DNA of 64,000 nucleotides from a virus, in the IMG/VR virus record IMGVR_UViG_3300030616_000017, positions 32,001 to 96,000 of that record; one strand, 5' to 3'. Numbering within the stretch: position 1 is the first letter of the stretch; every line of letters begins with the position of its first letter. Positions 22,222 through 60,723 of the stretch are shown here, piece by piece. The notes below the pieces were generated by a model. It saw nothing but the letters and a program-made list of their open reading frames with translations. It was not told where the DNA came from and did not search any database. The position numbers and the translations under genes are program-made.

Positions 22222-22635
22222 TTATAATAGTTTTAAATTACCAGTAATTTTATTAATTTCTTCAGACTTTGCAGGGCCTATAGCAATACAAGTAGGTGTT
22301 TTTACACCATGAAATTCAGTTAAGCCGCTATCTACAATATAAGAACAAGGTAAATTTCTTTTTTCAGCTTCCCTGTATAATTCATTTAACTCTTCCTCTG
22401 AATTACAGCTTACTACTACTTTAGTAAAAAGACCCTCCATCCAATCTCTCATATCTTCTGTTATATTCTGAATAACGCAATAATACTGATTCTCAACCCC
22501 AGCATCGATATCCATTACAGTAATATTGTCAAAAAATACTTTCATAGAAGCATGTGCTGATTGAGCTGCAATTTTTCCTTTACGCATTTTAAGGTCTTTT
22601 CTTACTACTATAACTTGTTTAATTTCTTCACTCAT
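22222..22635 (-). CDS. pth2: Peptidyl-tRNA hydrolase, Pth2 type
   Basis: KQVIVVRKDLKM.KGK.AAQ.AHA, TKVVV, D.G.TE, T..AIGP, ITG.LKL. Confidence 0.95.
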   Translation of the reverse strand: MSEEIKQVIVVRKDLKMRKGKIAAQSAHASMKVFFDNITVMDIDAGVENQYYCVIQNITEDMRDWMEGLFTKVVVSCNSEEELNELYREAEKRNLPCSYIVDSGLTEFHGVKTPTCIAIGPAKSEEINKITGNLKLL

Positions 22636-58615: not shown

Positions 58616-59827
58616 ATGAAACTTTTCACAGAAACATGGAAACAAAAGATGCAGGATATCATTGTAGGTATTCAGTATCTTTTCGTAGCGGCAGGAGCAA
58701 CAATTCTTGTTCCTCTGTTAACAGGTATTCCTGTATCAGTATGCGTAGTGACAGCTGGTATAGGGACTCTTATTTTTCACTTCATTACGGGTAAGGGAGT
58801 ACCTGTTCTTCTTTCTTCATCGTTTGCATTTATTGCGCCGATTGTGGCTGTAAAAGAACTATATGGTTTGCCTTTTGCATACGGAGGAGTTATTGTAGCT
58901 GGTTTATTGTACTTACTGTTTGCAGCTCTTATCTATTTTGTTGGGTTAGAGTTTATTAAAAAACTATTTCCCACCCCTGTGACAGCAACGATGGTAATTC
59001 TAATCGGTTTAATTTTAGCTCCTGTTGCGATTTCAAGTGCTTCACAAAACTGGATTATTGCTTTGATTACTCTTGCTGCTGGAGCTGCTATTAAAGTTGT
59101 GTGGGATAATAAATTCATTGGCTCATTAGCTATAATTGGAGCAATGGCTGTAGGATATCTTGTTTCAATAGCAGCAGGAATTGTAGATGTAAGCGCTGTT
59201 CAAGCAGCTGCGCTTGTAGGTGTTCCTGAATTTCAATTACCTCAATTTAATGCAAACGCTATTATGATTATTGCTCCGATTGCTATTGTAACATTTCTAG
59301 AACATTTTGCAGATATTTCCGCAGTGAGTAAAGTAGTTGAAAAAGATTTTCTAAAAGATCCTGGTGTACATAAAACATTGATAGGCGATGGTATAGCAAC
59401 AGCAATTGCTGGTTGTTTAGGAGGTTGTCCTAATACCACGTATTCAGAAAATATAGGGGCATTAGAGATTACAGGAGTTAAGAGAGCTAGCGTACTAAGA
59501 ATAACAGCTATAGCTTTAATCGTGGTAGGGTTTCTTCCTAAGATTGCATACCTTATTCATTCTATTCCTGCTCCTGTTGTGGGAGGAATCAGCATTCTTC
59601 TTTTCGGTCTTATCTCAGCAAATGGAGTTAAAAACCTAGTACAAGAACAAATTGATCTCAAAGATCATAAGAACCTCTTTATTATAGCGTCCATGTTAAT
59701 TGTTGGTGCTGGAGGCTCAGTTATTGAAATAGGTTCAGTTACATTTTCCAGCTTAGCTCTTGCAGCTCTTGTAGGTATAGTGATGAACGTAGCGTTCAAT
59801 TGGAAAACTTTTTTCAAAAAAAGTTAA
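58616..59827 (+). CDS. uraA: NCS2/UraA-family nucleobase permease
   Basis: GATILVP, SSFAFI, EH..D, GDG.AT, PNTTYSENIG; many TM helices. Confidence 0.9.
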   Translation: MKLFTETWKQKMQDIIVGIQYLFVAAGATILVPLLTGIPVSVCVVTAGIGTLIFHFITGKGVPVLLSSSFAFIAPIVAVKELYGLPFAYGGVIVAGLLYLLFAALIYFVGLEFIKKLFPTPVTATMVILIGLILAPVAISSASQNWIIALITLAAGAAIKVVWDNKFIGSLAIIGAMAVGYLVSIAAGIVDVSAVQAAALVGVPEFQLPQFNANAIMIIAPIAIVTFLEHFADISAVSKVVEKDFLKDPGVHKTLIGDGIATAIAGCLGGCPNTTYSENIGALEITGVKRASVLRITAIALIVVGFLPKIAYLIHSIPAPVVGGISILLFGLISANGVKNLVQEQIDLKDHKNLFIIASMLIVGAGGSVIEIGSVTFSSLALAALVGIVMNVAFNWKTFFKKS

Positions 59828-59835
59828 GAAAGTAG

Positions 59836-59864
59836 TTGAAAAATCTCTTTCGCTTGGTTATATT
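59836..59864 (+). promoter_or_regulatory. Early/middle promoter TTGAAA-17-TATATT for the RNA cluster
   Basis: Exact spacing, 10 bp before the tmRNA-like 5' end. Confidence 0.8.
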
Positions 59865-59873
59865 ATGAGGAGA

Positions 59874-59978
59874 GGGGGAGAAAATGGATTCGACTGCTAC
59901 ACTGCTGAAGCGACGAAAGGCCCAAAGTAACGAAAGCTGAGGTGTAGCAGGACTCGGGTTCGATGCCCGACTCCTCCA
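59874..59978 (+). ncRNA. Minimal tmRNA-like RNA (tRNA-like domain only, 105 nt)
   Basis: 5' GGGGGAG...GGATTCGAC; acceptor stem with G3:U70 and discriminator A; helix CTGCTACAC/GTGTAGCAG; GGAC-TCGGG-TTCGATG-CCCGA T-arm. Confidence 0.85.
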
Positions 59979-59991
59979 AAATAAAAAATAT

Positions 59992-60081
59992 GGGCAAGTG
60001 GCGAAGCTGGTTGAAACGCATGAGACTTAAAATCTCATACCCAAGCGGTAAACATCGTGGGTTCGATCCCCACCTTGCCTA
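59992..60081 (+). tRNA. tRNA-Leu(UAA)
   Basis: Cloverleaf, TGAGA-CTTAAAA-TCTCA anticodon arm, long variable arm. Confidence 0.93.
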
Positions 60082-60085
60082 ATAT

Positions 60086-60159
60086 GGCACCTTAGCTCAG
60101 CTGGATAGAGCATGAGATTTCTAATCTCAGGGTCACAGGTTCGAATCCTGTAGGTGTCA
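60086..60159 (+). tRNA. tRNA-Arg(UCU)
   Basis: TGAGA-TTTCTAA-TCTCA; GTTCGAATC T-loop. Confidence 0.93.
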
Positions 60160-60171
60160 TACTAATATAAA
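60160..60171 (+). promoter_or_regulatory. Putative late promoter TACTAATATAAA inside the tRNA cluster
   Basis: One-mismatch motif 5 bp before tRNA-Lys. Confidence 0.55.
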
Positions 60172-60175
60172 AAAT

Positions 60176-60248
60176 GGACCGTTAGCTCAGTCGGTAGAGC
60201 AACGCACTTTTAATGCGTAGGTCACAGGATCGTAGCCTGTACGGTTCA
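60176..60248 (+). tRNA. tRNA-Lys(UUU)
   Basis: ACGCA-CTTTTAA-TGCGT; atypical T-loop ATCGTAG. Confidence 0.9.
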
Positions 60249-60252
60249 CTAA

Positions 60253-60324
60253 GGTTTATTCGTATATTGGTTAGTACGCTGGATTGTCGATCCAGAAGGC
60301 GGGGTTCGATTCCCCGATAGACCG
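60253..60324 (+). tRNA. tRNA-Asp(GUC)
   Basis: CTGGA-TTGTCGA-TCCAG; discriminator G. Confidence 0.88.
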
Positions 60325-60325
60325 T

Positions 60326-60361
60326 TTTTGTAAGAAATCTATATAGTTTTTTCTTACAAAA
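60326..60361 (+). repeat. Inverted repeat TTTTGTAAGAAA/TTTCTTACAAAA between tRNA-Asp and tRNA-Glu
   Basis: Perfect 12-bp stem. Confidence 0.6.
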
Positions 60362-60368
60362 TCTCTTT

Positions 60369-60442
60369 GCTCCCTTCGTCTAATCGGTTAGGATATCGCC
60401 CTTTCAAGGCGAAGATATCGGGTTCAAGTCCCGTAGGGAGTA
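60369..60442 (+). tRNA. tRNA-Glu(UUC)
   Basis: TCGCC-CTTTCAA-GGCGA anticodon arm; GTTCAAG T-loop. Confidence 0.9.
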
Positions 60443-60453
60443 AAACATTTTAC

Positions 60454-60482
60454 TTTACTTTTTGGTAGAAAATGATTATATT
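60454..60482 (+). promoter_or_regulatory. Early/middle promoter TTTACT-17-TATATT
   Basis: Predicted +1 near 60489 coincides with the first base of RNA repeat 1. Confidence 0.75.
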
Positions 60483-60488
60483 ATATAT

Positions 60489-60546
60489 GTAGGCAGAGGG
60501 AGTTCCTCTAAAAAACACGGTGAAAGTTTGAATACTCTCCGCCTAC
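60489..60546 (+). ncRNA. Structured RNA repeat unit 1
   Basis: GTAGGC-AGA-GGGAGT-TCCT...T-ACTCTC-C-GCCTAC; 30-nt loop. Confidence 0.75.
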
Positions 60547-60561
60547 TTTATTGAAATTAAT

Positions 60562-60617
60562 ATGGCATAGAGGGTTCCTATACTATCAACTTTAAATTGA
60601 ATTCTACCCTCCGCCAT
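60562..60617 (+). ncRNA. Structured RNA repeat unit 2
   Basis: ATGGC-ATA-GAGGGT-TCCT...T-ACCCTC-C-GCCAT; 30-nt loop. Confidence 0.75.
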
Positions 60618-60633
60618 TTTAATATGAGTAATT

Positions 60634-60723
60634 AAGGGCATAAGAAGTTCCTAATGTAAAGAATTTACAGGGCAACTCCTACGGGAGCAGGGCCCTGTGC
60701 CAACAAACTTACTTCTCGCCCTT
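60634..60723 (+). ncRNA. Structured RNA repeat unit 3
   Basis: AAGGGC-ATA-AGAAGT-TCCT...T-ACTTCT-C-GCCCTT; 62-nt loop containing an ACAGGGC/GCCCTGT stem and a cUACGg tetraloop. Confidence 0.75.

What the first reader, a model, noticed from the sequence alone, without database searches (positions are those of the whole stretch)
59836..59978. Phage mini-tmRNA: intact Ala-acceptor tRNA-like domain with the mRNA domain almost entirely deleted
Seen: tmRNA-type ends (GGGG...GGAUUCGAC; GGAC.CGGGUUCGA..CCCG...CUCCA), a G3:U70 pair and helix 2 are all present. Only about 39 nt separate the helix strands, against roughly 250 nt of pseudoknots and tag ORF in normal tmRNA. It is the first RNA after a strong promoter. 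The insert carries two ACGAAAG copies and an 8-codon frame GCU...UAA (AEATKGPK*) with no Ala-Ala degron. Known: SmpB and AlaRS recognise the tRNA-like domain, and tag-less tmRNAs occur in some mitochondria. Inference: it could be an SmpB sponge blocking trans-translation, or a tag-free ribosome rescuer whose peptidyl-RNA product is cleared by the phage Pth2.
Basis: partly seen in the sequence, partly recalled or inferred. Interest (0 to 1): 0.82.

Follow-up and report, generated by a model that had tools for sequence, protein, structure and literature searches.

The report
Phage tag-less mini-tmRNA gene
A 147-kb uncultured phage carries a real 105-base gene for a shrunken ribosome-rescue RNA (tmRNA) that keeps the alanine-accepting tRNA-like end and has no tag-coding part; one such RNA was already known from mycobacteriophage DS6A, but this one belongs to a longer, previously undescribed subtype with an extra conserved loop.

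Summary
Rfam's tmRNA model matches window 59874-59981 end to end (59.9 bits, cut-off 47, E 6e-21), with 288 internal model positions replaced by 22 nt. ARAGORN misses it.

The RNA has:
- a 7-bp acceptor stem with G3:U70 and A73;
- the GGAUUCGAC D-like loop;
- a 10-bp helix 2;
- a canonical T arm;
- no pseudoknots and no encoded CCA.

It sits behind a recurring phage promoter and heads a five-tRNA array.

It is neither an artefact nor a recent deletion. The locus is identical in at least 9 independently assembled contigs. A related phage (capsid protein 67% identical) has a 127-nt version in the same gene order. Three unrelated large phages carry 108-126-nt versions. All five share covarying stems and a conserved 24-26-nt loop (GACG...CGAAA). 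None has a full-length tmRNA or SmpB.

No reading frame is conserved and none ends in a degron.

The class is already known: the "TLD-only" tmRNA of phage DS6A, and a similar molecule inhibits tmRNA in E. coli. Earlier agents of this scan also found shorter forms on other phage DNA. I file this as a new variant of a known kind.

Most likely it diverts host SmpB, EF-Tu and stalled ribosomes from ssrA tagging. A tag-free rescue route using the phage PTH2 remains possible. No expression data could be obtained.

The parts
59836..59864 (+). Sigma-70-type promoter: -35 TTGAAA (59836-59841), 17-nt spacer, -10 TATATT (59859-59864). The predicted start lies 1-4 nt before the RNA's first G.
   Evidence: Consensus scan, 10 of 12 positions. 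It is one of at least 7 copies of a TTGAAA..GTTATATTAT(A/G) promoter class in the 147-kb genome.
59874..59978 (+). Mini-tmRNA gene, 105 nt from G1 to discriminator A; CCA is not encoded.
   Evidence: RF00023 59.9 bits, E 6e-21. Fold -39.4 kcal/mol, z -3.24. 53.9 bits to model R1, which was built from four homologues that exclude this sequence.
59874..59880 (+). Acceptor stem, 5' strand GGGGGAG. It pairs with 59971-59977 (CUCCUCC) and includes G3:U70. The discriminator A is at 59978.
   Evidence: Sequence. All 7 pairs form. G1:C72, G2:C71 and G3:U70 are invariant in 24 of 24 mini-tmRNAs, while pairs 4-6 covary.
59881..59893 (+). D-loop analogue AAAAUGGAUUCGA (tmRNA signature GGAUUCGAC).
   Evidence: Matches the conserved (upper-case) positions of the Rfam tmRNA consensus.
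59894..59903 (+). Helix 2, 5' strand (CUGCUACACU). It pairs with 59941-59950 (GGUGUAGCAG).
   Evidence: 10 of 10 pairs form. Helix 2 has a different sequence but is fully paired in all five subfamily members. 6 of its 7 modelled pairs show changes on both sides across 24 RNAs.
59909..59938 (+). Apical module: a short stem AGC (59909-59911) / GCU (59936-59938) enclosing a conserved 24-nt loop, GACGAAAGGCCCAAAGUAACGAAA (59912-59935).
   Evidence: The stem is paired and different in all five homologues. The loop is 19 of 24 identical to G003 (0 of 100,000 shuffles reach this) and 15 of 24 identical to G002 (86 of 100,000). The covariance-model alignment reproduces the ungapped loop alignment.
59954..59970 (+). 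T arm UCGGG-UUCGAUG-CCCGA.
   Evidence: Rfam alignment. 5 of 5 pairs form.
59991..60443 (+). Co-oriented array of five tRNA genes (Leu-UAA, Arg-UCU, Lys-UUU, Asp-GUC, Glu-UUC), beginning 13 nt after the mini-tmRNA. None has an encoded CCA.
   Evidence: ARAGORN and Rfam tRNA hits of 57-69 bits.
22225..22623 (-). Phage PTH2-type peptidyl-tRNA hydrolase gene. It is a possible partner and is not adjacent.
   Evidence: PF01981 122.6 bits at G000:C1:54225-54623, minus strand. PTH2 is also present in G001 and G002.

Best explanation
This is a functional phage gene for a CDS-less mini-tmRNA. It consists of the alanine-accepting tRNA-like domain plus helix 2, capped by a small stem and a conserved 24-nt loop, with all four pseudoknots and the tag frame missing.

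Proposed pathway (all steps inferred unless marked):
1. It is transcribed from an early-type promoter together with five tRNAs.
2. It is trimmed by host RNase P and 3' processing enzymes and receives CCA from the host enzyme.
3. It is charged by AlaRS through G3:U70 and A73.
4. It binds host SmpB and EF-Tu in place of host tmRNA.
5. Because it has no tag template, it diverts SmpB and stalled ribosomes away from normal trans-translation, so ssrA tagging and tmRNA-dependent rescue are blocked or bypassed during infection.

Shown here: the identity and structure of the RNA, conservation of the structure, of the alanine identity pairs and of the apical loop, and the promoter and tRNA context. Shown by others: a similar TLD-only molecule inhibits tmRNA in E. 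coli.
For: - **Identity.** RF00023 59.9 bits, above the 47-bit cut-off, E 6e-21. All conserved TLD consensus positions are matched.
- **Real and under selection, not a remnant.**
  - The locus is identical in at least 9 independent assemblies.
  - A 127-nt homologue lies in the same gene order in related phage G001. Its capsid protein is 67% identical and its 665-aa neighbour 47% identical.
  - Further homologues occur in three phages that share no capsid match with this one.
  - All four helices pair in all five homologues, each with a different sequence.
  - Over 24 distinct mini-tmRNAs, 95% of cells are paired against 68% in shuffles, and the covariation score is 0.486 against 0.10.
- **Alanine identity.** G1:C72, G2:C71 and G3:U70 are invariant in 24 of 24, while pairs 4-6 vary freely.
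- **No template.** No frame is conserved, one homologue (G003) has no stop codon in any frame, and no tag ends like ...LAA.
- **No own rescue partners.** No phage SmpB. No full-length tmRNA in this phage or the other four.
- **Expression context.** Recurring promoter class and a tRNA operon.
- **Phage-specific.** The same mid-size pattern found no genuine hit in one genome each of 185,579 bacterial and archaeal species.
- **Literature.** DS6A carries a TLD-only tmRNA. A similar molecule strongly inhibits tmRNA in E. coli, perhaps by titrating SmpB (PMC4131195 and PMC11915505, both citing Mao et al. 2009, which I could not read).
Against: - No expression, processing, charging or binding data exist for this RNA.
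- The host is unknown.
- The published inhibition did not need a chargeable molecule. The strict conservation of the alanine identity pairs therefore hints at more than SmpB titration, for example real entry into ribosomes, which fits the rescue rival equally well.
- The conserved 24-nt loop has no role in the decoy model.
- It is unclear why a phage would gain from blocking ribosome rescue.
- More distant homologue-bearing contigs (L059, L061) show no mini-tmRNA within 10 kb of the marker gene.
Confidence: 0.5

Rival explanations
1. Tag-free ribosome rescuer. Ala-mini-tmRNA with host SmpB enters stalled ribosomes and takes over the nascent chain. Having no template, it leaves as peptidyl-RNA (or is released by a hydrolase), and the phage PTH2 then clears it. 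Ribosomes are recycled for phage translation without degron tagging.
For: - The alanine identity pairs are invariant in 24 of 24 mini-tmRNAs. This is needed for EF-Tu delivery but not for SmpB titration.
- PTH2 is present in all three complete genomes of this subtype: this phage, G001 and the unrelated G002. It is absent from 20 other mini-tmRNA contigs and 30 arbitrary viral contigs.
- Relative G001 also encodes a small RF-1/GGQ-domain protein.
- The phage invests heavily in translation and RNA repair: 18 tRNAs and an RNA ligase.
Against: - PTH2 is 37 kb from the RNA gene.
- Only two independent lineages support the link, and genome size and habitat are confounders.
- Six nearly complete phages with shorter mini-tmRNAs have no PTH2.
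- No mechanism is known that frees a ribosome holding a peptidyl-TLD with no template.
- Nothing was tested biochemically.
Confidence: 0.25
2. Decoy or modulator for something other than trans-translation. Examples are a bait for host defence nucleases or sensors that recognise tRNA or tmRNA shapes (anticodon nucleases, SmpB-like domains of CoCoNuT systems), or a regulator of RNase R. In this reading the conserved 24-nt loop is the binding site.
For: - The apical loop is conserved while its flanking stem covaries. This points to a specific ligand that the TLD alone does not explain.
- Neighbours are a tRNA array and an RNA ligase, a theme of countering tRNA damage.
- Defence systems with SmpB-like domains have been described (PMC11090510).
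- A phage protein-RNA anti-CRISPR uses t(m)RNA fragments (PMC11662646).
Against: - No defence or anti-defence gene is linked to the RNA in the five genomes.
- A decoy for nucleases would not need the invariant alanine identity pairs.
- The idea is speculative throughout.
Confidence: 0.1
3. Miniature but complete tmRNA. The conserved loop holds a resume site (GCN after an A/U-rich stretch), and a short untagged peptide of 6-16 codons is added before termination.
For: - A GCN codon lies at nearly the same loop position in all five homologues.
- In that frame stops follow after 6 codons (this phage, UGA), 9 codons (G002 and G004, UAA in a hairpin loop) and 16 codons (G001).
Against: - G003 has no stop codon in any frame downstream of the loop.
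- G001's 2-nt longer loop shifts the frame.
- The peptides share no C-terminal motif.
- Seeing an in-frame stop in 4 of 5 AT-rich stretches of 35-60 nt is what chance would give.
Confidence: 0.07
4. Non-functional remnant: a decaying tmRNA, an attP-type tmRNA fragment, an assembly artefact, or a chance match over a 21-codon ORF (ATG at 59865 to TAA at 59930).
For: - An ATG-initiated 21-codon frame does run through the 5' half of the RNA.
- Phages that integrate into ssrA are known to carry tmRNA pieces.
Against: - Both TLD halves are present in normal order.
- The genome has no integrase.
- The locus is identical in at least 9 assemblies.
- Compensatory changes occur in every helix across five homologues.
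- A homologue sits in the same gene order in a phage whose neighbouring protein is only 47% identical.
- E 6e-21.
Confidence: 0.03

Closest known systems
"TLD-only" (CDS-less) tmRNA of mycobacteriophage DS6A (tmRNA Website tmID 11587 / Phage__Mycobacterium.9; PMC4131195, PMC11915505; Mao et al. 2009)
   Same: - Phage-encoded.
- tmRNA-type tRNA-like domain with G3:U70.
- No tag reading frame and no pseudoknots.
- Found by Rfam's tmRNA model only through a local match (DS6A 43.2 bits at JN698994 28478-28560, not annotated in the record).
- The SmpB-titration idea was already proposed for it.
   Different: - DS6A's RNA is about 83 nt, from a 60-kb, high-GC temperate actinophage.
- This one is 105 nt, from a 147-kb, 36% GC phage with no integrase.
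- It has a longer helix 2 and an extra stem with a 24-nt loop, conserved in five phages.
- It heads a tRNA operon and lacks an encoded CCA.
- It scores higher against the tmRNA model (59.9 bits, above the cut-off).
Bacterial one-piece tmRNA (ssrA, Rfam RF00023)
   Same: The 5' and 3' ends, acceptor stem, G3:U70, A73, D-like loop GGAUUCGAC, base of helix 2, the GAC linker and the T arm all match the consensus.
   Different: - About 250 nt are missing: pseudoknots PK1-PK4, the mRNA-like region with the tag frame and degron, and helix 5.
- No partner SmpB gene in the genome.
CDS-less organellar tmRNAs (jakobid mitochondria; about 65-nt plastid forms of Mallomonadaceae, PMC11915505)
   Same: Natural tmRNA derivatives reduced to the tRNA-like domain, thought still to act with SmpB.
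   Different: - The organellar forms are the organelle's only tmRNA and are presumed to rescue ribosomes.
- The phage RNA enters a cell that has its own full tmRNA and would compete with it.
- There is no sequence relationship beyond the TLD.
Shorter phage mini-tmRNAs (63-95 nt) in uncultured phage contigs, noted by earlier agents of this scan and recovered here (e.g. L004-L007, L090, L091, L094)
   Same: Same TLD, invariant G1-G3 pairs and covarying helix 2.
   Different: - They close helix 2 with a short hairpin, often a GAAA tetraloop.
- They lack the stem and GACG...CGAAA loop module.
- None of the 20 contigs checked has PTH2.

Membership tests
tmRNA (ssrA, Rfam RF00023), full functional family | tRNA-like domain: paired 5' and 3' ends, G3:U70, T arm, D-like loop | tested here: met
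   RF00023 59.9 bits against a cut-off of 47, with both model ends matched. All pairs form.
tmRNA (ssrA, Rfam RF00023), full functional family | mRNA-like region with a resume codon and a tag frame ending in a proteolysis signal and a stop codon | tested here: not met
   Only 37 nt lie between the helix-2 strands. No frame is conserved among the five homologues, none ends in ...LAA, and one homologue has no stop codon.
tmRNA (ssrA, Rfam RF00023), full functional family | Pseudoknots PK1-PK4 around the coding region | tested here: not met
   288 model positions are skipped. The fold shows one continuous hairpin arm.
tmRNA (ssrA, Rfam RF00023), full functional family | Works with an SmpB encoded in the same genome | tested here: not met
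   PF01668 gives no hit in the complete 147-kb genome. A host SmpB would have to be used.
CDS-less / TLD-only phage tmRNA (DS6A type) | Encoded by a phage | tested here: met
   The source is a virus record rated 100% complete by CheckV. It has capsid, portal, DNA polymerase and 18 tRNAs.
CDS-less / TLD-only phage tmRNA (DS6A type) | Complete tmRNA-type TLD with alanine identity elements (G3:U70, A73) | tested here: met
   These pairs are invariant in 24 of 24 members.
CDS-less / TLD-only phage tmRNA (DS6A type) | No tag frame and no pseudoknots; helix 2 closed after a short distance | tested here: met
CDS-less / TLD-only phage tmRNA (DS6A type) | Inhibits host trans-translation (reported for a similar molecule in E. 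coli) | not testable with these tools
   Known only from the literature (PMC4131195, PMC11915505). It needs a tagging reporter assay.
CDS-less / TLD-only phage tmRNA (DS6A type) | Transcribed, processed and aminoacylated | not testable with these tools
Canonical tRNA-Ala | D arm and anticodon arm with an alanine anticodon | tested here: not met
   No RF00005 or ARAGORN tRNA call at this site. The phage has a separate tRNA-Ala(UGC) at genome 97908-97982.

The most novel reading that the evidence does not exclude
The 105-127-nt subtype is not just a sponge. It is the RNA half of a phage-run, tag-free ribosome-rescue route. Alanine-charged mini-tmRNA, delivered by host SmpB and EF-Tu, takes nascent chains off stalled ribosomes. 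The conserved GACG...CGAAA loop docks a factor or a ribosomal site. The phage PTH2 (and in G001 a GGQ-domain protein) then releases the peptide. Ribosomes are recycled for phage use without ssrA tagging.
Probability: 0.22. Interest if true: 0.82.

Novelty: new variant of a known kind. Interest (0 to 1): 0.55.

Why it matters
Trans-translation is the main ribosome-rescue pathway in bacteria and a drug target. Apart from one mycobacteriophage RNA mentioned in database papers, natural inhibitors or hijackers of it are hardly described.

This case shows that CDS-less tmRNAs are not an oddity of DS6A. They occur in large, unrelated, low-GC phages. They are under clear selection for structure and for alanine identity. 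In this subtype they carry an extra conserved loop that should mark a specific binding partner.

The case gives a compact, testable natural RNA (105 nt) for asking two questions: whether phages shut down, bypass or re-use host ribosome rescue, and whether charging with alanine is needed for that. It also shows that standard annotation (ARAGORN, GenBank records) misses these genes.

Tried and rejected
- **ARAGORN** finds no tmRNA here or in nine other mini-tmRNA loci, so it cannot be used to census this class.
- **BLAST against GenBank phages.** The RNA gave no match, and the 12-kb neighbourhood gave only a tRNA match.
- **Strict pattern at the 40-70-nt gap size in IMG/VR** gave nothing. Looser patterns were needed. 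Most of their hits were tandem tRNAs, 3' ends of full-length tmRNAs, or coding-sequence chance matches, and were filtered out by acceptor-stem pairing.
- **Protein-based search for related loci in IMG/VR** gave nothing. The relative G001 was reached through the large protein database.
- **Contigs of three closer protein homologues** (P0003, P0004, P0007) were too short upstream to be informative.
- **Long "tRNA" hits in relatives** turned out to be insert-bearing tRNAs, not mini-tmRNAs.
- **Host inference** from an exact match to the TLD 3' end in bacterial genomes gave no match. The host remains unknown.
- **MAFFT alignment of the five RNAs** misplaced this RNA's loop. A covariance model built without it gave the alignment I used.
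- **Self-complementary tetranucleotide** in the loop (GGCC, GCGC, UGCA): it is offset by one position between members, so I do not claim it.
- **Mao et al. 2009** could not be read and is cited second-hand.
- **Complex prediction** was not used, because it models proteins only.
- **Rejected readings:** attP fragment (no integrase), two-piece or permuted tmRNA (normal order of the halves), and a small protein gene.

Full report
**1. What is there**

The window is bases 32001-96000 of a 147,158-bp IMG/VR virus record that CheckV rates 100% complete. GC is about 36%. The record encodes a capsid protein, portal, DNA polymerase, helicase, RecA, ribonucleotide reductase, an RNA ligase and 18 tRNAs.

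Rfam's tmRNA model (RF00023) matches window 59874-59981 on the + strand. The score is 59.9 bits against a gathering score of 47, E 6.1e-21. Both ends of the 374-position model are aligned, and 288 internal positions are replaced by 22 nt. ARAGORN reports only the five tRNAs that follow.

Reading the sequence gives these parts:

| Part | Sequence or size | Window coordinates |
|---|---|---|
| Acceptor stem | GGGGGAG / CUCCUCC, with G3:U70 | 59874-59880 with 59971-59977 |
| Discriminator | A | 59978 |
| D-like loop | contains GGAUUCGAC | 59881-59893 |
| Helix 2 | 10 bp | 59894-59903 with 59941-59950 |
| Linker | GAC | 59951-59953 |
| T arm | UCGGG-UUCGAUG-CCCGA | 59954-59970 |

CCA is not encoded, as is also the case for the neighbouring phage tRNAs. 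The predicted fold has -39.4 kcal/mol, z = -3.24 against shuffles. The RNA is 55% GC in a 36% GC genome.

The finding's start coordinate, 59836, is the -35 box of a TTGAAA-17-TATATT promoter. The same design (TTGAAA, about 15 nt, GTTATATTATA) recurs at least seven times in the genome. So this is a regular phage promoter. It would start transcription 1-4 nt before G1. Thirteen nucleotides after the RNA, an array of tRNA-Leu, Arg, Lys, Asp and Glu begins.

**2. Not an artefact, not a recent deletion**

The neighbouring 647-aa protein occurs on nine assembled contigs from several samples. The two loci that were fetched are 100% identical to the window over 7 kb, including the RNA.

The nearest relative I could find is G001, a 146,575-bp sediment phage. 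Its capsid protein is 67% identical and its 665-aa neighbour 47% identical. It has the same gene order: ribonucleotide reductase, then RNA, then tRNAs, then the 665-aa gene. At that place it carries a 127-nt tmRNA-like RNA (RF00023 44.9 bits, E 1e-14).

Pattern scans of IMG/VR then recovered three further homologues:

| Phage | Contig size | RNA length | Note |
|---|---|---|---|
| G002 | 168 kb | 126 nt | |
| G003 | 106 kb | 108 nt | |
| G004 | 178 kb | 124 nt | lies inside a tRNA array |

These three share no capsid or 665-aa match with this phage. None of the five genomes has a full-length tmRNA. This phage has no SmpB and no integrase.

The same mid-size pattern found no genuine hit in one genome each of 185,579 bacterial and archaeal species. 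The form appears to be a phage speciality.

**3. Anatomy of the subtype**

I cut the five RNAs at equivalent places. The acceptor stem, helix 2, a second inner stem and the T stem all pair fully in all five. Each helix has a different sequence in nearly every member.

The inner stem is 3-6 bp:
- AGC/GCU in this phage;
- GCCC/GGGC in G003;
- GGAAU/GUUCC in G002;
- CACUUC/GAAGUG in G004;
- AAAGAC/GUCUUU in G001.

It encloses a loop of 24 nt (26 nt in G001) that begins GACG(A/U)(A/U)AA and ends CGAAA. This phage's loop is 19 of 24 identical to G003's (0 of 100,000 shuffles reach that) and 15 of 24 identical to G002's (86 of 100,000).

So the stems covary while the loop is conserved. That is the signature of a structured RNA with a sequence-specific site.

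A covariance model built from the four other members, without this RNA, finds it at 53.9 bits. That is the best score among non-training sequences. The model aligns the loop ungapped, exactly as I had done by hand.

G001, G002 and G004 have an additional small hairpin (AGAU-UAAA-AUCU, or ACCU-UAAA-AGGU). This phage and G003 lack it, which accounts for the size difference of 105-108 nt against 124-127 nt.

This phage's TLD is the most canonical of the five. The others have a GGCUUCGAUGCC or AUCAUUC T loop and score lower.

**4. The wider class**

The scans also returned shorter (63-95 nt) and other mid-size (104-119 nt) mini-tmRNAs from many unrelated viral and metagenomic contigs. I aligned 24 distinct ones to the model:
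- 95% of pair cells are standard pairs, against 68% in shuffles and 36-55% when partners are slid.
- 19 of 28 pairs show changes on both sides.
- The covariation score is 0.486 against 0.10 in shuffles.

G1:C72, G2:C71 and G3:U70 are invariant in all 24, while pairs 4-6 change freely. One caveat: four of the 24 were picked with a filter that required G3:U70. The others were not.

This means the alanine identity set is under selection.

**5. Is there a tag?**

No.

- A GCN codon does sit at nearly the same loop position in all five. The frames that start there end after 6 codons (this phage, UGA), 9 codons (G002 and G004, UAA), 16 codons (G001, UAG) and never (G003, which has no stop in any frame).
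- G001's longer loop shifts the frame.
- No peptide ends like a degron.
- Stops in 4 of 5 AT-rich stretches of this length are what chance would give.

**6. What is known**

- Hudson, Lau and Williams (PMC4131195) list mycobacteriophage DS6A as carrying a "TLD only" tmRNA. They note that a similar molecule, chargeable or not, strongly inhibits tmRNA, perhaps by titrating SmpB (citing Mao et al. 2009, which I could not read).
- The 2025 tmRNA database paper (PMC11915505) repeats this and adds CDS-less plastid forms.
- I located the DS6A RNA at JN698994 28478-28560. It is not annotated there and scores 43.2 bits.
- Full-length phage tmRNAs are found by ARAGORN in about 2% of phage genomes (PMC9004378).
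- Earlier agents of this scan had already noted many 63-80-nt phage mini-tmRNAs, and the G002 RNA itself, on other DNA. I treated these notes as leads and re-derived what I use.

The kind is therefore known. What is new is this longer subtype with a conserved stem-loop module, its presence in large low-GC phages, and its position at the head of a tRNA operon.

**7. How it probably works**

Shown:
- It is a conserved, structured RNA with all the sequence marks for AlaRS and the tmRNA-specific TLD shape.
- It has no template and no phage SmpB.
- It has a promoter and a tRNA-type processing context.

Inferred:
- It is matured like a tRNA, charged with alanine, bound by host SmpB and EF-Tu, and competes with host tmRNA.

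The published precedent makes inhibition of ssrA tagging the default reading. I give it about 0.5.

The invariance of the alanine identity pairs is not needed for SmpB titration.

PTH2 is present in all three complete genomes of the subtype: this phage at window 22225-22623 (minus strand), G001 and the unrelated G002. It is absent from 20 other mini-tmRNA contigs, six of them at least 95% complete, and from 30 arbitrary viral contigs. G001 also has a small GGQ-domain protein. This rests on two independent lineages, and genome size is a confounder, so it is suggestive only. I give this rival about 0.25.

The conserved loop is unexplained by either model and may be a binding site for another factor. 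A decoy role against tRNA- or tmRNA-sensing defences is a minor rival (PMC11090510, PMC11662646).

**8. Verdict**

This is a new variant of a known kind. Interest is moderate.

Noticed in passing
window 58616-59827 (+): The phage encodes a xanthine/uracil permease (PF00860, 254 bits) directly upstream of the mini-tmRNA promoter. A membrane nucleobase transporter is an unusual auxiliary gene for a phage. The nearest matches are at about 40% identity, in records labelled as phage from human faecal samples and from Listeria.
   Followed up: partly
whole genome, e.g. window 59836, 23120 (-), 494 (-), and genome 97718, 99822, 104586, 121214: A recurring promoter class, TTGAAA, about 15 nt, then GTTATATTATA, occurs at least seven times. 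This is probably the set of promoters read by the host RNA polymerase holoenzyme.
   Followed up: partly
L058:8472-8587, L058:17031-17151, L059:14503-14607, L059:6801-6913: Related phages carry tRNA genes of 105-121 nt with 30-45-nt inserts in or near the anticodon arm, which look like introns.
   Followed up: no
L059:9808-9920: A 113-nt RNA with a T arm, a closed acceptor-like hairpin and a D arm in permuted order. It is a weak match to the Y-RNA-like family YrlA (34.7 bits against a cut-off of 69). It lies just upstream of the homologue of the 665-aa gene in a more distant phage.
   Followed up: partly
L027:517-2359 (IMG/VR 3300008629_000049): Four type II hammerhead ribozymes (40-52 bits, cut-off 37), spaced 350-450 nt apart, flank an 89-nt mini-tmRNA at 1828-1916. 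This may be a self-processing RNA operon.
   Followed up: no
G001:C1:128453-128647: The related phage G001 encodes a small RF-1/GGQ-domain protein (46 bits). It could be an ArfB-like peptidyl-tRNA hydrolase. This phage has none.
   Followed up: no
L058:6983-7165: In G001 the 5' half of the mini-tmRNA lies inside the 3' tail of a called 60-aa ORF whose N-terminal part looks like a ribbon-helix-helix protein. RNA processing would cut that mRNA.
   Followed up: no
genome 116.7 kb (L002:about 1440-1575), outside the window: A tRNA-like RNA with a closed acceptor-like stem and a long insert. Only its T arm matches RF00023 (17.7 bits). Other first-stage readers also flagged it.
   Followed up: partly
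window 60454-60700 (+): A non-coding stretch behind a second promoter-like site (TTTACT-17-TATATT at 60454-60482), between the tRNA array and the 665-aa gene. Another first-stage note describes three stem-loop elements here. I did not examine it.
   Followed up: no
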